Below, one piece after another: positions 3,653 to 10,287 of a stretch of DNA of 64,000 nt; position 1 is the first letter of the stretch, and each line of letters begins with the position of its first letter. Source of the DNA: Escherichia coli (GTDB lineage: Bacteria > Pseudomonadota > Gammaproteobacteria > Enterobacterales > Enterobacteriaceae); the NCBI RefSeq assembly GCF_044324875.1, contig NZ_CP172185.1, one strand, 5' to 3'. A program made the position numbers and the translations under genes. The notes beneath the pieces are model-generated. The model ran no database searches. It worked only from the letters and a program-made list of their open reading frames with translations, and had not been told where the DNA came from.

Positions 3653-3943
3653 TTACGTACGCAGTCGTTCCGGCTTCTTCCAGTGGTACGTATTTTTCGC
3701 GCTCTCCCTCCGTTGTTGAGAACGGCGACGGTATGCCAGCAACTCAAGGACTCTTGTTCGTATGTTGCGCATATCCACGCCGTTAAGCTCAATACCATCA
3801 CGGCGCATCACCTCCGCAACAACACGCACATAATTTTCGGCGGTCACGCTGTCCGGCTGCGTGGCCTGTTCGTCATGCTGCTGGCTGATTCCGGTAACGC
3901 GGCGGATTAATCCCAGTAGTTCGGCTTCGCTCATTCTCGTCAT
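3653..3943 (-). CDS. hypothetical protein, last gene of packaging operon
   Basis: 96 aa ORF; start overlaps terL stop by 4 bp (translational coupling); no recognisable motif. Confidence 0.55.
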   Translation of the reverse strand: MTRMSEAELLGLIRRVTGISQQHDEQATQPDSVTAENYVRVVAEVMRRDGIELNGVDMRNIRTRVLELLAYRRRSQQRRESAKNTYHWKKPERLRT

Positions 3944-5601
3944 ACCCCATCAAACGCCGCAAGCCGCTCTTTGTGGCTGTCGCTCATATCGAATGCAAAT
4001 TCCTCATGCTCTGCCTGGAATGTGCCAAACGCCATCAGCGCCGCAACGCTCGGGTCTATCTTGTTGGATGATTTTTTCTTGTTCGGCTTGATATTGGCGT
4101 TCGCGTCACTCTGCATCACAACATTACTCATTGACCAGGCCAGCACCGGATCACCACGATGCACAATCACCTTCCGGTTAACAAAAACTTCGAACGATTT
4201 CGCCGCCGGACTGAAACGAAGGTATGTTTGCGGGAACGGCTCCACCTCAAATCCCGCCCCCTGTAGCTGTGTTCTCAGGTGAGTGGCGTTCCATGTATCG
4301 AAGCCCACCAGCCTGATACTGAAATTCTCTGCATCCGCCATGATGTCATCACGGATACGGTCATAATCAATGCAGTCACCCGGTGTTGTGCGTATCCAGC
4401 CAGCCTTTACCCACTGGCGATAGATGGCGCGGTTTTTATTGGCGGGGTTCTGTAGCTGAAATTCCGGCAGATAGTGACGGGAAACCAGCATAATTTTTTT
4501 ACCGACCGGGAAGGCATAGCACACGCTGGAAATATCGCTGGTTGATGATAAGTCCAGCCCCGCGTAGCACTCCTGCCCGTATAAATCCGCCTCCGCGAAC
4601 GTTCCGGCGCACTCCGCCCATGCACCGTTACCCATCCACGGCGTAGCCCCCTGACACCAGATATTGAATCGCTTGGTGAGCATTTCCACCCACTGCGACG
4701 GAATACCCCGCGCTTTCTGGATGGTTGAGGCCAGTTTTTCACGATCGACGGAAACATCGATATTGGGATTCGCCTTTATCCACATCGCCGGATCGTCAAC
4801 CTCGCTTTCATCATCCAGCTCGTAAATCAGCACGAACATGGATTCGTTCACCTCTTCACCATCCAGTATCTGGCAGCAATAGTCATAGTGTTGTTTACAG
4901 GCTGAAACAACGTTGCTCCCCGATGTGGTGATGGCAAATAACAGCCCCTCCGGACGCGCCCCCATTCCCAGCTCAAGCGCGGAATAAACCCCGTTGTCAG
5001 GGTGCAGGTGATATTCATCCACAATGGCAAGACTCGGGTTTGTACCTTCAATGGTTGCCGCTTTTGCTGCCAGTGGCTTTAACAGGCTGTTGGTTTTCGC
5101 GTGTATCACCTTGTGTGCCTGAATATTTACCCGCTTTCGTAACGGTCGGGATAAAAGGCACATCTGACGCGCATCATCAAACACGATCCGCGCCTGATCA
5201 CGACTCACGGCGGCGGTGTAAATATCCTGCTGCCCGTTTTCCATAACCAGAAACCAGTTAGCCAGGATAGCGGCGACCGTGGATTTGGCATTTTTTCGCG
5301 GTACTTCAATGAATGCGCTGGTGTATTTGCGCCGTCCGGTGGCCTTAACCTTAAAGCCCAGGATGCACGCAAAGGCGAACTGCTGCCACGGCTCCAGCTC
5401 AATGGGGCTACCGCGCATTGCGCCTTTTACGTGCGGACACACCCTGGAAAAGGCAATAAACCGCTCCACGACCTCCGGATCGAACGTGTAAAGGGGGTTT
5501 TCAAGGTCAGAAAAATACCGTTTAACAGCCTGTTTCAGTCGTTTACAGGCCGTAATTTTGCCGTTTTTTACGCCTTCTGCGTACTCATGCCAGGCGGTCA
5601 A
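3940..5601 (-). CDS. terL: terminase large subunit
   Basis: 553 aa; ATPase N-terminal region and nuclease C-terminal region typical of phage TerL; adjacent to TerS and HNH. Confidence 0.85.
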   Translation of the reverse strand: MTAWHEYAEGVKNGKITACKRLKQAVKRYFSDLENPLYTFDPEVVERFIAFSRVCPHVKGAMRGSPIELEPWQQFAFACILGFKVKATGRRKYTSAFIEVPRKNAKSTVAAILANWFLVMENGQQDIYTAAVSRDQARIVFDDARQMCLLSRPLRKRVNIQAHKVIHAKTNSLLKPLAAKAATIEGTNPSLAIVDEYHLHPDNGVYSALELGMGARPEGLLFAITTSGSNVVSACKQHYDYCCQILDGEEVNESMFVLIYELDDESEVDDPAMWIKANPNIDVSVDREKLASTIQKARGIPSQWVEMLTKRFNIWCQGATPWMGNGAWAECAGTFAEADLYGQECYAGLDLSSTSDISSVCYAFPVGKKIMLVSRHYLPEFQLQNPANKNRAIYRQWVKAGWIRTTPGDCIDYDRIRDDIMADAENFSIRLVGFDTWNATHLRTQLQGAGFEVEPFPQTYLRFSPAAKSFEVFVNRKVIVHRGDPVLAWSMSNVVMQSDANANIKPNKKKSSNKIDPSVAALMAFGTFQAEHEEFAFDMSDSHKERLAAFDGV

Positions 5602-5941
5602 GCTCGTCCTCTTCCTCTGTTTCCGGTGGATTTCTGCGGCGGCTTACCGGGTCAAAACCCAGCAAAGAAGCCATTTTGATCATTATTCTTTCCGCGTCAG
5701 CCTTTGCGCTCAGGGCGGGGTTTCTGCTCTCGCTGCCCTGACTGTTAACAATGCTGAACCCGCGCGTGGCAAGGTCTTCGACGGCTTTGCGGTATATGGA
5801 GTAGTTAACGCAATACAGCTCCAGATTGCTCCAGTCGGCGGGAGTAAGGTCTTCCCGTCCGGAAAGCTGGCGCGATTTTTCCTTCCACTGCCTGACCGCG
5901 ATTTCATCCAGGTAAGCGGGGGCTTTTGGTGGTCTTGCCAT
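5585..5941 (-). CDS. terS: terminase small subunit (P27-family-like)
   Basis: ORF 5585-5986; likely start MARPPKAPAYL; small basic DNA-binding protein immediately upstream of terL with overlapping stop/start. Confidence 0.7.
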   Translation of the reverse strand: MARPPKAPAYLDEIAVRQWKEKSRQLSGREDLTPADWSNLELYCVNYSIYRKAVEDLATRGFSIVNSQGSESRNPALSAKADAERIMIKMASLLGFDPVSRRRNPPETEEEDELDRLA

Positions 5942-6064
5942 GTTCTTTTTTCGCCCAATTATTTTCAAAAAAATTCCCGTGCACAAAAATTTGAGCAGGC
6001 GGTCGGTTCTGGGCGGGGTCGGGTTCGTCCTGAAAACTCCCCCCCACCCCGTCCGGCTGCCTCA

Positions 6065-8516: not shown

Positions 8517-8517
8517 A

Positions 8518-9090
8518 TCACACCCCCGCTAAATCCACCCACCAGCGGCGATTATCCGCACGCGGCATTTTTTCGGGGTGCTGCTCATACAGGGAACGGC
8601 GGGCCAGCTCCACGCCAGAATCGGGGTAAGCCGGTACCGATGTAACGGTAATTTCGTACAGTTCCGCCACCAGCACGGTACGAACGCATGGATCTGTTGT
8701 GGTATCCCATACATCCTTACGGGAGCGAAAGCCAAAGCTCATGCCGGATATATCACCGCGTTTAACCAGTTCGATAACGTCGCGCCCTGTACTGGTATCC
8801 GGTGGGGTCAGTTCAAAGCGTAACCCTGTTTCGTCCTCTTCCAGTTTCAGCGTGCCGGAACGGGTGCGCCCCAGTAACATGCTGTGGTCATGCTCATACA
8901 GGCCGCGAACGTCATTACCCGCCGCAAGCCATTCAGTAAACGCCCCCCGCTGGAATTTTTCGTAAAACTCACCCCATAACAGTTCTGAAAGCTTATCCCA
9001 GCGAACAACGTAGCCCGTCAGCGTACCGGCTCCGCTCGTGGTGATTTCCGATGACCGGATTTCCATACTCTTCATAATTTTTTCACCCAT
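8518..9090 (-). CDS. prohead protease (HK97 family, S78-like)
   Basis: 190 aa; typical HK97 prohead protease N-terminal pattern; between capsid and portal genes. Confidence 0.8.
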   Translation of the reverse strand: MGEKIMKSMEIRSSEITTSGAGTLTGYVVRWDKLSELLWGEFYEKFQRGAFTEWLAAGNDVRGLYEHDHSMLLGRTRSGTLKLEEDETGLRFELTPPDTSTGRDVIELVKRGDISGMSFGFRSRKDVWDTTTDPCVRTVLVAELYEITVTSVPAYPDSGVELARRSLYEQHPEKMPRADNRRWWVDLAGV

Positions 9091-9129
9091 AAAACACTAA
9101 AGGGGCTTTTAAGCCCCTTCTGTATGCTG

Positions 9130-10287
9130 TTAATCGTCGTCCTGTGGCAGTTCCAGAATCTTGATCGCGTTCGAATCCACCACGCCACCGCCTAAATATT
9201 TCTGCGTGAAAATTTTGATGAAGCCCGGCTCTGTGATGTTGTCCGGTCTGGTGCGAACACCTGTTTCGTGATCAACAATGTAGTAACCGCGTTTGAAGTC
9301 ACCCAGGGCAATAACGTTATCAGGCATAAACTCCAGATATTCGACCGGAAGGCCCAGCAACGTATCAGGATCACCCGCCTGTAAACGGTCGCGCCAGATG
9401 TAATCACCGTTCGCGTTCTTCACCTTCTGAAGTTTTGCCGCCGTTGTGGAGTTAACCACCCATACCGCGTTCTTGCGGTATTTTTTACGCAATGCAAATT
9501 TCAGGTCGATCAGCGGGTCCGCAGATGTCCACGCCAGACCGTGAGTGGGCTTGATAACCTGCAACGTTCCGAAGTCGCGTTCTTTGTCGCTCTTCTCTGC
9601 ACGGGGGACGGATAAAAAGCCTTTTGCTTTTTTGTCACCGTCTCCCACAACCAGATCGCTTTCTTCGGTTTCCGTGAAGGTGTCGCCAATCTCGGCCGTC
9701 AGCCATGAAAGGATGTCCACATCGGAAAAATCCACGATTTCCTGTGTGGTGCGCGGGTACGCATAGACCGGATACAGCTTAATGCTCACCTCGTTAATCT
9801 GCGGGGTGCTGGTCTGTTCGCGTGCCTTACCCTCTTCACCGTGGTTAACGGTCGCACCGCCAGCGGAAACAAGCTGCTTAAACTCGTTGCTGCTGATTTT
9901 CTTCACGGTACAGATGCGGCGCATGGTGGATTCATCCGCCAGCATTCGCATGATTTCGGTGTTCAGTTCGGGGATAACGGTATAACCACCATCAGCGGGA
10001 ACGCCTGTACTTAATGCGCGGGTTTCACCTGTCAGAATGTAGTTGCGTAGTTCTGCGGGGTCAGTGGTCTGACTGCTTTTACCTGGCTTGCTGCGCTCTT
10101 CGTCTGCAATGGCTTCAAGGCGGGAAATGTCTTTATCGAGGGATTCAGCTTTAGCGCGTAATTCATCAAATTTTGCGCCCTCAGCATCGTTAAGACTGCG
10201 GTTTTCTTTTTCCGCGTTCTCCAGCATGTCGCGCATCTGATTTTTAATGGCGGTTTTCTGCTGGCGTAATTCGATTATTCTCGGCAT
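9130..10287 (-). CDS. major capsid protein (HK97 fold, with N-terminal coiled-coil delta/scaffold domain)
   Basis: ORF 9130-10332; likely start MPRIIEL; N-terminal charged coiled-coil then HK97-like MCP body. Confidence 0.85.
   Translation of the reverse strand: MPRIIELRQQKTAIKNQMRDMLENAEKENRSLNDAEGAKFDELRAKAESLDKDISRLEAIADEERSKPGKSSQTTDPAELRNYILTGETRALSTGVPADGGYTVIPELNTEIMRMLADESTMRRICTVKKISSNEFKQLVSAGGATVNHGEEGKAREQTSTPQINEVSIKLYPVYAYPRTTQEIVDFSDVDILSWLTAEIGDTFTETEESDLVVGDGDKKAKGFLSVPRAEKSDKERDFGTLQVIKPTHGLAWTSADPLIDLKFALRKKYRKNAVWVVNSTTAAKLQKVKNANGDYIWRDRLQAGDPDTLLGLPVEYLEFMPDNVIALGDFKRGYYIVDHETGVRTRPDNITEPGFIKIFTQKYLGGGVVDSNAIKILELPQDDD

What the first reader, a model, noticed from the sequence alone, without database searches (positions are those of the whole stretch)
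3940..10287. Unusual head-module gene order (capsid-protease-portal-completion proteins-HNH-TerS-TerL) and HNH endonuclease coupled to the terminase
All eight genes are co-directional, but the capsid gene is promoter-proximal and the terminase genes are last, the reverse of the usual HK97-like order terS-terL-portal-protease-capsid. An HNH endonuclease immediately precedes terS, as in HNH-assisted cos packaging. For a satellite this arrangement would favour early capsid production and points to cos-type, terminase-specific packaging of the island genome.
Basis: partly seen in the sequence, partly recalled or inferred. Interest (0 to 1): 0.5.

Follow-up and report, generated by a model that had tools for sequence, protein, structure and literature searches.

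The report
Canonical cf-PICI capsid and packaging operon
This is the standard capsid-and-packaging operon of a known kind of E. coli phage satellite (a capsid-forming PICI closely related to the published prototype EcCIEDL933), and its odd-looking gene order and its HNH nuclease next to the terminase are already the published hallmark of that family.

Summary
A translationally coupled 96-aa ORF follows.

The genes sit in a 15,572-bp island (3241-18812). It is flanked by a 9-bp direct repeat, inserted in tqsA, and carries int, alpA, a helicase with iterons, and no tail or lysis genes. The capsid protein is 377/385 identical to PDB 9GYI, the EcCIEDL933 capsid.

The founding cf-PICI paper already states that Proteobacterial cf-PICIs have the order capsid-protease-portal-connectors, then hnh-terS-terL. 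It shows that each gene is needed for transfer. Cohesive ends are also reported for the family. The same order holds in every related locus long enough to judge: 409 complete E. coli genomes carry at least 80% of the module, and 80 IMG/VR loci were checked gene by gene. So this is not a misassembly and not new.

"Reverse of HK97" is only partly right, because HNH-terS-terL is collinear with circular HK97. "Early capsid production" is untested.

Small additions: a candidate HK97-like cos site in the orf57-terS spacer, a conserved hairpin after the capsid gene, and a conserved structured leader before it.

The parts
3232..3240 (.). Left copy of the 9-bp att core TGCTGTTAT (island/chromosome junction inside tqsA)
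   Evidence: Comparison with the empty K-12 site. Window 146-3240 and 18813-22000 match K-12 with a 9-bp overlap.
3241..18812 (-). The whole island, 15,572 bp (cf-PICI). Nearly all genes are on the minus strand.
   Evidence: boundaries; gene content; no tail or lysis PHROG category.
3653..3943 (-). 96-aa ORF (orf96) that overlaps the TerL stop by 4 nt. Function unknown. Probably the last gene of the operon or accessory cargo.
   Evidence: phrog_1561, 3.2e-56. Present after TerL in many related loci. No PADLOC hit.
3940..5601 (-). Large terminase subunit TerL (553 aa)
   Evidence: phrog_9, 3.5e-180. Annotated as terminase large subunit in E. coli genomes.
5585..5941 (-). Small terminase subunit TerS, P27 family (118 aa from the ATG at 5941)
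   Evidence: TIGR01558, 1e-17; phrog_83, 6.6e-39. Start as in the PGAP annotation of L001. No detectable BLASTP similarity to HK97 gp1.
5942..6064 (-). Non-coding spacer holding the candidate cos site. Conserved blocks: GGGGTGGGGGGGAGTTTTCAGGAC (6050-6027), TCAAATTTTT (5994-5985) and ATTTTTTTGAAAATAA (5974-5959). Predicted cleavage lies within about 5985-6005. The putative TerS site is CGGGAATTTTTTT (5979-5967).
   Evidence: - The blocks are conserved in 46 unique variants, including Pasteurella (TerS 59-61% identical by alignment or tblastn).
- The architecture matches the joined ends of HK97 and YeP1.
- The HK97 TerS site lies at +15 to +29 from the cut (PMC11331095).
- A mosaic junction falls at 5996/5995.
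- Two virion-derived records break here.
- All of this is inferred. The ends have not been mapped.
6065..6238 (-). 57-aa ORF (orf57) between HNH and terS. By position it corresponds to EcCIEDL933 hypothetical gene 1792.
   Evidence: phrog_3173, 1.6e-34. Conserved in related loci. The gene 1792 mutant had severely reduced transfer (10.1101/2022.09.08.507074 section 7). The equivalence to gene 1792 is inferred from position only.
6231..6671 (-). HNH endonuclease (146 aa), with an N-terminal Cys/His cluster and paired CxxC motifs
   Evidence: phrog_144, 4.2e-43. 41% identical to HK97 gp74, E 3e-18. The motifs CAHC, DH, WNH and CQACHN can be read directly in the translation.
6671..6967 (-). Head-tail adaptor Ad1 (98 aa; "head-tail connector protein" in PGAP)
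   Evidence: phrog_40, 1.5e-33; TIGR01560, 1e-24.
6964..7302 (-). Head closure protein Hc1 (112 aa)
   Evidence: phrog_25, 1.5e-29; TIGR01563, 2.6e-13.
7299..8516 (-). Portal protein (405 aa)
   Evidence: phrog_12, 1.7e-118; TIGR01537, 1.3e-75.
8518..9090 (-). HK97-family prohead protease (190 aa)
   Evidence: phrog_80, 1.9e-67; TIGR01543, 4e-53.
9099..9120 (-). GC-rich hairpin (GAAGGGGCT-TAAA-AGCCCCTTT) followed by a T-rich tail, in the 39-nt gap after the capsid gene. It is terminator-like, and may act as an attenuator or an mRNA-stabilising element.
   Evidence: Terminator scan. Present in all 28 unique variants, with 8 distinct stem versions. 0 of 2000 shuffles gave a hairpin as good. HK97 has an annotated putative terminator after its MCP gene. 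The function is inferred.
9130..10287 (-). HK97-fold major capsid protein (385 aa) with an SxGxxAD maturation motif at residue 93
   Evidence: TIGR01554, 5e-88. 377/385 identical to PDB 9GYI, E 3e-252. 9GYI is the EcCIEDL933 capsid. Motif at residue 93.
10382..10483 (-). Conserved promoter-like element and structured leader of the operon:
- TTTACT (10483-10478), 16-nt spacer, TATTCT (10461-10456).
- Hairpin 1 at 10450-10427.
- Helix 2 at 10423-10382.
   Evidence: Conservation across 39 variants. Hairpin 1 has 9 pairs, 3 of them with compensatory changes. Helix 2 has 9-13 pairs in most variants and many different arm sequences. No Rfam match. The window version falls just below the threshold of the consensus promoter scan.
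11080..11105 (.). Bidirectional terminator-like hairpin separating the upstream replication and accessory genes from the packaging region
12873..14279 (-). Replication helicase of the island (RepA-like, 468 aa). Its iterons lie just downstream at 12662-12875.
   Evidence: phrog_2850, 1.7e-185, and phrog_906. Direct repeat families D1 and D2. PGAP name "helicase RepA family protein" in L001.
16845..17033 (-). AlpA-like excisionase and transcriptional regulator (62 aa)
   Evidence: phrog_2790, 1.3e-17.
17408..18637 (-). Tyrosine integrase (409 aa)
   Evidence: NCBIfam integrase-domain hits. PGAP name in related genomes.
18813..18821 (.). Right copy of the 9-bp att core TGCTGTTAT

Best explanation
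The region is the packaging operon of a capsid-forming phage-inducible chromosomal island (cf-PICI) of the Gammaproteobacterial clade. It is a close relative of the prototype EcCIEDL933, integrated in E. coli tqsA.

How it works, by extension from experiments on the prototype:
- After a helper phage induces the island, it excises and replicates.
- It expresses this operon and builds its own small HK97-fold capsids: MCP matured by the prohead protease, on its own portal.
- Its own TerS-TerL terminase, helped by the HNH endonuclease, cuts island concatemers at an island-specific cos site and fills those capsids.
- Ad1 and Hc1 finish the head so that it can dock onto tails stolen from the helper phage.

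The gene order (MCP, protease, portal, Hc1, Ad1, HNH, orf57, cos, terS, terL) is the fixed, published order of this clade.

Inferred here:
- cos lies in the 123-nt orf57-terS spacer and has an HK97-like layout. A G-run sits upstream. The cut falls near ...CCGCCTGC|TCAAATTTTT. A G-plus-T-tract TerS site sits about 15-28 nt downstream.
- That puts terS-terL at the left end and HNH at the right end of the packaged DNA, as in HK97.
- The operon has its own promoter and structured leader in front of the capsid gene.
- A leaky terminator or stabiliser hairpin sits right after the capsid gene. That would raise capsid protein output over the eight or nine downstream genes, which are needed in far fewer copies.
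For: Shown here:
- All gene assignments.
- Island boundaries, 9-bp direct repeat and size of 15,572 bp.
- int, alpA and helicase with iterons, and no tail or lysis genes.
- MCP 377/385 identical to PDB 9GYI, which is the EcCIEDL933 capsid. SxGxxAD motif at residue 93, as reported for EcCIEDL933.
- Identical gene order in every related locus with enough sequence: E. coli genomes, 80 IMG/VR loci, Klebsiella LR881103.1 and Pasteurella Pmp8.

From the literature:
- The order is stated in so many words for Proteobacterial cf-PICIs. Each packaging gene is required for transfer, except gene 1792, whose loss only reduced it severely (10.1101/2022.09.08.507074 sections 7 and 9).
- Cohesive ends (10.1101/2025.02.11.637232 section 6).
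- The family definition lists the same eight genes.

For the cos inference:
- Non-coding blocks in the spacer are conserved down to Pasteurella.
- The layout is shared with the joined ends of HK97 and YeP1.
- The HK97 TerS site lies at +15 to +29 from the cut, and the HK97 overhang is 10 nt 3' (PMC11331095).
- In 18 variants with TerS and TerL 98-100% identical but HNH about 73% identical, the 53 nt to the right of the predicted cut are 95-100% identical and the 70 nt to the left only 77-81%.
- Two virion-derived records break in this spacer and lack 69 nt and about 130 nt around the predicted cut.

For the expression inference.
Against: - Nothing contradicts membership in the cf-PICI family.
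- Induction, capsid size and tail piracy cannot be tested from sequence.
- The island is mosaic relative to its relatives. For example, L001 has identical head genes but HNH only 88% identical. Behaviour of the prototype may therefore not transfer in every detail.
- The cos position is inferred, not mapped. TerS here is P27-family and shows no BLASTP similarity to HK97 gp1, so the analogy for the TerS site is weak.
- The record ends of LR881103.1 and PQ569648.1 could be editorial or assembly choices rather than physical ends. One virome contig (L064) ends 132 nt upstream of terS, not at the predicted cut.
- The post-MCP hairpin has a poor U-tract in the window (UUUAGUGUUUU), so termination may be weak or absent.
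- The window promoter matches only 8 of 12 consensus positions.
Confidence: 0.93

Rival explanations
1. It is a decayed HK97-like prophage that has lost its tail, lysis and early genes, not an autonomous satellite. On this view the gene order is a by-product of deletions and rearrangements.
For: All head and terminase proteins belong to ordinary phage families. The PGAP annotations read like a prophage.
Against: - The element is precise: 15.6 kb, with intact att repeats, integrase, alpA, its own helicase and iterons.
- Every ORF is intact, and the ORFs are tightly overlapped.
- The same architecture occurs in 409 complete genomes and across genera.
- The MCP is 98% identical to a capsid shown experimentally to be made by a satellite.
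- The nearest true phages share only 33-37% MCP identity and have the canonical order.
Confidence: 0.03
2. The capsid-first order is a scaffold or assembly error, or a misreading of strand.
For: None found. On the plus strand the coordinate order runs terL...MCP, which could be mistaken for the canonical order.
Against: All genes are on the minus strand, so the transcription order really is MCP first. The same order is seen in closed genomes and in independent collections.
Confidence: 0.01
3. The order was selected for timing. Placing the capsid gene next to the promoter makes procapsids appear before terminase, giving the satellite a head start over its helper.
For: The capsid gene is the first gene after a conserved promoter-like element. 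The terminase genes lie about 4.3-6.3 kb downstream.
Against: - There are no timing data.
- Inference from general knowledge: within one transcript the delay is only about the time needed to transcribe roughly 6 kb, a minute or two. That is short next to a lytic cycle.
- The conserved hairpin right after the capsid gene points to dosage rather than timing.
- Firmicute cf-PICIs work with other orders, including HNH-TerS-TerL first (10.1101/2022.09.08.507074 section 9).
Confidence: 0.15

Closest known systems
EcCIEDL933 and the Gammaproteobacterial cf-PICI clade (Alqurainy et al., 10.1101/2022.09.08.507074; He et al., 10.1101/2025.02.11.637232)
   Same: - Size about 15.5 kb.
- int, alpA, replication module, then the packaging module in the identical order, including the small ORF between HNH and terS.
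- MCP 98% identical to PDB 9GYI, with the same SxGxxAD motif at residue 93.
- No tail or lysis genes.
- HNH-dependent cos-type packaging is reported for the family.
   Different: - This copy sits in tqsA.
- I did not retrieve the EcCIEDL933 sequence itself, so only its MCP was compared.
- The island is a mosaic relative to its relatives. Head genes, the Hc1/Ad1 pair, HNH-orf57 and terS-terL each show different identities to different relatives.
HK97 and other HNH-dependent cos phages (HK97 gp74, gp1, gp2; the helper HK106; phages with P27-family TerS such as Yersinia YeP1)
   Same: - HK97-fold MCP, HK97-family protease and portal, Ad1 and Hc1.
- The HNH is homologous to gp74 (E 3e-18).
- HNH-[cos]-terS-terL is collinear with the circular HK97 map.
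- The spacer shares the G-run, ACCG, TCAAATTT and T-tract layout of the HK97 and YeP1 ends.
- A hairpin follows the MCP gene.
   Different: - The head block lies upstream of HNH instead of downstream of terL, and its internal order is inverted.
- TerS is P27-family, with no BLASTP similarity to HK97 gp1.
- There are no tail, lysis or early genes.
- MCP identity to true phages is only 33-37%.
- The capsid is T=4 in the prototype, against T=7 for HK97.
Classical E. coli PICIs (EcCICFT073, EcCIED1a) and P4-like satellites
   Same: Integrase, AlpA and replication-module layout. A C4/isrK-type antisense RNA region next to Icd-like ORFs. Helper dependence.
   Different: Those satellites use helper capsid proteins and the helper terminase (via Rpp, or by carrying the helper cos). 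They encode no MCP, portal or terminase of their own.
cf-PICIs of Firmicutes (two groups)
   Same: The same gene content in the packaging module.
   Different: [quoted passage not shown] They have independent evolutionary origins (10.1101/2022.09.08.507074 sections 9-10).

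Membership tests
cf-PICI (Proteobacterial clade) | Element size about 10-18 kb | tested here: met
   15,572 bp between the 9-bp direct repeats. Criterion taken from 10.1101/2025.02.11.637232 section 39.
cf-PICI (Proteobacterial clade) | Integrase at one end, with a defined chromosomal attachment site | tested here: met
   Tyrosine integrase at 17408-18637 next to the right junction. Core TGCTGTTAT duplicated. Empty site in K-12 tqsA. I did not check whether prophages ever use this site.
cf-PICI (Proteobacterial clade) | Regulation module with alpA | tested here: met
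   AlpA-like ORF at 16845-17033, phrog_2790, 1.3e-17. C4 antisense RNA and Icd-like ORFs lie nearby.
cf-PICI (Proteobacterial clade) | Own replication module | tested here: met
   RepA-like helicase at 12873-14279, iterons at 12662-12875, SSB at 11698-12108.
cf-PICI (Proteobacterial clade) | [quoted passage not shown] | tested here: met
   The order is as stated in 10.1101/2022.09.08.507074 section 9.
cf-PICI (Proteobacterial clade) | No lysis genes and no complete tail module | tested here: met
   No ORF of the island that was scanned hits a PHROG tail or lysis family. Two small plus-strand ORFs and the 157-aa ORF at 10603-11076 have no hit at all.
cf-PICI (Proteobacterial clade) | Capsid protein related to an experimentally validated cf-PICI capsid | tested here: met
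   377/385 identical to PDB 9GYI, the EcCIEDL933 capsid.
cf-PICI (Proteobacterial clade) | Helper-phage induction, island-encoded small (T=4) capsids, use of helper tails only | not testable with these tools
   Shown experimentally only for EcCIEDL933, KpCIDSM30104 and EcCIGN02175.
HNH-dependent cos packaging (HK97 type) | HNH endonuclease gene adjacent to the terminase genes and homologous to HK97 gp74 | tested here: met
   HNH lies 290 nt upstream of terS, separated only by orf57 and the spacer. BLASTP against gp74 gives E 3e-18.
HNH-dependent cos packaging (HK97 type) | cos site between the HNH gene and terS | tested here: inconclusive
   In favour: conserved spacer blocks, a layout shared with the HK97 and YeP1 ends, a mosaic junction, and breaks in two virion-derived records. 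The physical ends were not mapped.
HNH-dependent cos packaging (HK97 type) | TerS of the HK97 gp1 family | tested here: not met
   TerS is P27-family (TIGR01558). BLASTP against HK97 gp1 gives E = 4. The system therefore works like HK97 packaging but does not use the same TerS family. YeP1, whose MCP is among the closest of true phages, also has a P27-family TerS.
HNH-dependent cos packaging (HK97 type) | 10-nt 3' cohesive ends made with HNH stimulation | not testable with these tools
   Known for HK97 (PMC11331095). For cf-PICIs only the existence of cohesive ends is reported.

The most novel reading that the evidence does not exclude
Nothing about the gene order itself is new. The most novel reading still open concerns three conserved cis elements around the operon. 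I did not find them described in the two cf-PICI papers I could read.

1. The cos site sits at a precise point in the orf57-terS spacer. It doubles as the recombination joint that lets a terS-terL unit with its recognition site swap independently of the HNH-plus-head unit.
2. A structured two-helix leader RNA with no Rfam family sits at the 5' end of the capsid operon. It could be a cis-acting control element, for example an antiterminator or the target of a helper or island regulator.
3. A hairpin after the capsid gene sets capsid-to-accessory protein ratios, which would explain why the capsid gene comes first.
Probability: 0.4. Interest if true: 0.3.

Novelty: already known. Interest (0 to 1): 0.12.

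Why it matters
As a discovery it matters little.

It is useful as annotation. This 15.6-kb island in tqsA is a mobile element that can package itself and ride on foreign tails between strains and species.

The cis elements noted here are cheap experimental handles. They bear on how these satellites keep packaging specific to themselves and how they control their capsid operon. They are the candidate cos site with its co-inherited terS-terL side, the post-capsid hairpin, and the covarying leader.

Tried and rejected
- I looked for att repeats with 12-nt seeds and found none. The 9-bp core came only from comparison with the empty K-12 site.
- I assumed the GenBank fragment OR845787.1 (host ATCC 43895, which from my own knowledge is strain EDL933) was EcCIEDL933 and could serve for a gene-by-gene comparison. 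It is not. No O157 genome matches it at 97% or more, and only 20 genomes carry it. I did not retrieve EcCIEDL933 itself, so the link to the prototype rests on the PDB 9GYI capsid sequence.
- I looked for virome contigs that end exactly at the predicted cos. Only L064 ends near it, at 132 nt upstream of terS, which is not at the predicted cut.
- The consensus sigma-70 scan found no minus-strand promoter upstream of the capsid gene. The promoter-like element was seen only through conservation.
- MAFFT plus RNAalifold, as run by the tool, recovered only hairpin 1 of the leader, because the 3' arm of helix 2 shifts in position. Helix 2 was shown per sequence instead and in a second alignment.
- Rfam has no family for the leader or for the post-MCP hairpin.
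- PADLOC gave no defence assignment for the accessory ORFs.
- Readings considered and rejected: defective prophage, misassembly, a P4-like satellite that uses the helper cos, and a gene transfer agent. The last was raised by PDB hits to RcGTA capsids at 1e-46, but the island has int, att, its own replication module and a cos region.

Full report
**What is there**

The window is E. coli chromosome. The flanks are ydgD-mdtI-mdtJ on the left and tqsA-pntB-pntA on the right, at 97-99% identity to thousands of genomes.

Comparison with the empty site in K-12 shows the insertion. Window 146-3240 and 18813-22000 are contiguous in K-12 apart from a 9-bp overlap, TGCTGTTAT, which is duplicated at 3232-3240 and 18813-18821. 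The inserted element is therefore 3241-18812, 15,572 bp. It lies inside the 5' part of tqsA.

Read on the minus strand, from the right end, the island carries:
- A tyrosine integrase (17408-18637).
- An AlpA-like regulator (16845-17033).
- A region with Icd-like ORFs and a C4-type antisense RNA (15472-15559; Rfam RF01695, 72 bits).
- Several small ORFs of unknown function.
- A RepA-like helicase (12873-14279) with three or four iterons just downstream (12662-12875).
- An SSB and a PerC-like activator.
- A bidirectional terminator-like hairpin (11080-11105).
- One plus-strand ORF with no homologue in PHROGs or PADLOC (10603-11076).
- The block under study.

No ORF that I scanned hits a tail or lysis family.

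**Check of the observation**

All eight genes are real, intact, co-directional on the minus strand, and confidently assigned:

| Gene | Coordinates | Best evidence |
|---|---|---|
| HK97-type MCP | 9130-10287 | TIGR01554, 5e-88 |
| Prohead protease | 8518-9090 | TIGR01543, 4e-53 |
| Portal | 7299-8516 | TIGR01537, 1e-75 |
| Head closure Hc1 | 6964-7302 | phrog_25, 1.5e-29 |
| Adaptor Ad1 | 6671-6967 | phrog_40, 1.5e-33 |
| HNH | 6231-6671 | phrog_144, 4e-43; 41% identical to HK97 gp74, E 3e-18 |
| TerS, P27 family | 5585-5941 | TIGR01558, 1e-17 |
| TerL | 3940-5601 | phrog_9, 3.5e-180 |

One is a conserved 57-aa ORF between HNH and terS (6065-6238; phrog_3173, 1.6e-34). The other is a 96-aa ORF whose start overlaps the TerL stop (3653-3943; phrog_1561).

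Gene junctions show three tightly coupled blocks separated by two gaps:
- [MCP]
- a 39-nt gap
- [protease-portal-Hc1-Ad1-HNH-orf57]
- a 123-nt gap
- [terS-terL-orf96]

Misassembly is excluded. 1501 of 5426 complete E. coli genomes carry a match, and 409 of them cover at least 80% of the module. The annotated order in one of them (L001) is the same as here. In all 80 IMG/VR loci recovered with TerS, in Klebsiella record LR881103.1 and in Pasteurella record Pmp8, every locus with enough sequence shows this order.

**What it is**

The capsid protein is 377/385 identical to PDB 9GYI. He et al. deposited that entry as the EcCIEDL933 capsid (10.1101/2025.02.11.637232 section 44). The window protein also carries the SxGxxAD maturation motif at residue 93, where the mature EcCIEDL933 capsid protein begins.

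The founding paper (10.1101/2022.09.08.507074) describes EcCIEDL933 as a 15.4-kb element. [quoted passage not shown] That paper also mutated every gene of the module. Transfer was abolished in each case except hypothetical gene 1792, where it was severely reduced. By position, gene 1792 corresponds to orf57 here; this is my inference.

The later preprint reports cohesive ends for packaged cf-PICI DNA. It gives the family criteria: 10-18 kb, integrase, replication and regulation modules, the eight-gene packaging module, and no lysis or tail module. Every criterion testable from sequence is met here.

**How unusual the order is**

Against phages the order is unusual. HK97 has terS-terL-portal-protease-MCP-Ad1-Hc1, with HNH at the far right end, 320 nt from cos. 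The nearest true phages by MCP identity, Yersinia YeP1 (33%) and Pseudomonas VW-6S (37%), have the same canonical order.

It is not simply "the reverse", however. On the circular or concatemeric map, HK97 reads HNH-cos-terS-terL, exactly as here. What differs is the head block. It lies upstream of HNH and its internal order is inverted: MCP-protease-portal, and Hc1-Ad1.

A natural control appears in several IMG/VR contigs (L012, L013, L018, L019, L044). There the island's TerL is followed about 500 nt later by the C-terminal part of a different TerL (29% identity). Then come portal, (protease), MCP, Ad1 and Hc1 in the canonical order. The satellite order and the phage order sit side by side on one contig.

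**Candidate cos site (inferred)**

The 123-nt spacer between orf57 and terS is far better conserved than neutral DNA should be. Three blocks are near-invariant in 46 unique variants:
- GGGGTGGGGGxGGTTTTCAGGAC
- TCAAATTTTT
- ATTTTTTTGAAAATAA

The variants include Pasteurella, whose TerS is only about 60% identical (59% in the protein alignment, 61% by tblastn).

The joined ends of HK97 and of YeP1 have the same layout: a G-run, about 25 nt, ACCG..., then the terminus, then (G)TCAGATTTTT or GTTTGAATTT, then a G followed by a T-tract. Transferred to the window, the terminus falls within about 5985-6005, next to TCAAATTTTT (5994-5985).

In HK97 the minimal TerS site is +15 to +29 from the cut. It consists of a specifically read G plus an A-tract, and the ends carry 10-nt 3' overhangs whose cutting gp74 stimulates (PMC11331095). 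The window has CGGGAATTTTTTT at about +16 to +28 by that numbering.

Two independent lines agree with this position.

First, there is a mosaic junction. In 18 unique variants, TerS and TerL are 98-100% identical to the window while HNH is about 73% and orf57 68-77% identical. In those variants the 53 nt from TCAAATTTTT to the terS ATG are 95-100% identical, and the 70 nt to the left only 77-81%. The last mismatch lies 2 nt before TCAAATTTTT. So the junction between the terS-terL module and the HNH-head module coincides with the predicted cut, and the right-hand side is inherited together with terS.

Second, two GenBank "phage" records derived from virions are cf-PICIs laid out terS-first and HNH-last. 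They are LR881103.1 and the last 16 kb of PQ569648.1. Both break in this spacer and lack 69 nt and about 130 nt roughly centred on the predicted cut. That is what end drop-out of a linear molecule would give.

Caveats: the ends were not mapped. TerS is P27-family and shows no BLASTP similarity to HK97 gp1. Record ends can be editorial choices.

**Expression signals (inferred)**

About 165-195 nt upstream of the capsid ATG there is a promoter-like element: TTTACW, a 16-nt spacer, then TATNYT (window 10483-10456). It is conserved in 39 variants. Three TTGTTC repeats at 10-nt spacing lie just upstream of it in the window (10528-10503).

A 24-nt hairpin with an invariant GACG loop follows immediately (10450-10427). 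It has 9 pairs, 3 of them with compensatory double changes. Next comes a second helix of 9-13 pairs whose arms differ in sequence between lineages but stay complementary. Examples are TTTCCCGCCTG/CAGGCGGGAAA, GGCCGTTAAGTC/GATTTAACGGCC and TGTCCACCTGG/CCAGGTGGACA. Rfam has no match.

So the capsid gene really is promoter-proximal, behind a structured leader of unknown role.

In the 39-nt gap after the capsid gene there is a GC-rich hairpin with a T-rich tail (9120-9099). A hairpin is present at this spot in all 28 unique variants, with 8 different stem versions. None of 2000 shuffles gave one as good. HK97 has an annotated putative terminator after its capsid gene too.

My reading is that this is a leaky terminator or an mRNA-stabilising 3' hairpin, which would lift capsid protein output above the downstream genes. 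That gives a dosage rationale for "capsid first". From the published T=4 geometry, about 235 capsid copies are needed per head against 12 portal copies and catalytic amounts of terminase; those numbers are my inference.

**Verdict**

The finding is a correct description of a known thing. Novelty: already known, as one more, mosaic, copy of a well-characterised family. Interest is low. The residual value lies in the cis elements listed above, which I did not find described in the two cf-PICI papers available to me. I could not search the final journal versions.

Noticed in passing
window 10382-10483 (minus strand); also the 39 related variants from L001-L087: A conserved promoter-like element is followed by a two-helix leader RNA in front of the capsid gene. 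Hairpin 1 has an invariant GACG loop. Helix 2 has arms that covary across lineages. There is no Rfam family and the function is unknown.
   Followed up: partly
window 10503-10528 (minus strand): Three TTGTTC repeats at 10-nt spacing lie just upstream of the -35 region of the capsid-operon promoter. This could be an activator binding site. Many other lineages have one TGTTCG at the same place.
   Followed up: no
window 15472-15676 (minus strand): A C4 antisense RNA (RF01695, 72 bits, above the gathering score) sits with its a1/b1 target and a sub-threshold isrK-like match. It is embedded among two Icd-like ORFs. This is a P1/P4-type immunity region in the island's regulatory module.
   Followed up: no
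window 3104-3240 and 18813-19719: The island splits tqsA, the AI-2 exporter gene. The first 45 or so codons lie left of the island and the rest lies to the right. The right-hand ORF could restart at a GTG at 18835.
   Followed up: partly
window 3241-3633: The leftmost 393 bp of the island are shared with many E. coli genomes that lack this packaging module (for example strain 042). Strain Ch1 (NZ_CP127316) has the same integrase at the same site but about 4 kb less DNA between the flanks. This suggests that different islands share this att site and end.
   Followed up: no
L012, L013, L018, L019, L044 (IMG/VR), about 12,500-17,400 in each locus: About 500 nt after the island's TerL comes the C-terminal part of a different TerL (29% identity), followed by portal, MCP, Ad1 and Hc1 in canonical order. 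The cf-PICI therefore appears to be embedded in a prophage terminase gene, like the helper-embedded PICIs of PMC10111431. These embedded islands have no Hc1 gene of their own: portal is followed by Ad1 after only 14 nt.
   Followed up: partly
L001-L087 compared with the window: The packaging module is strongly mosaic. Head genes, the Hc1/Ad1 pair, HNH-orf57 and terS-terL each show different identity to the window in different loci. For example, L021 has Hc1 and Ad1 at 99-100% but MCP at 75%. L001 has MCP through Ad1 at 100% but HNH at 88% and orf57 at 72%.
   Followed up: partly
L090/L092 (PQ569648.1, Klebsiella phage P12620-1, 106.5 kb): The last 16 kb or so of this "complete phage genome" is a cf-PICI joined to unrelated sequence exactly at the terS start codon. 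It ends inside orf57. This looks like a chimeric assembly of a phage and a co-packaged satellite.
   Followed up: partly
L002 (LR881103.1), 2036-4333: This 16.5-kb Klebsiella/Escherichia cf-PICI record carries a 765-aa ORF right after TerL, annotated "tail length tape measure protein". It sits where the window has only orf96. It is probably accessory cargo or a misannotation.
   Followed up: no
window 10603-11076 (plus strand): This 157-aa ORF is the only sizeable plus-strand gene of the island, placed between the upstream terminator and the capsid-operon promoter. It has no PHROG, NCBIfam-style or PADLOC match. It sits in the variable slot where cf-PICIs are said to carry defence cargo.
   Followed up: partly
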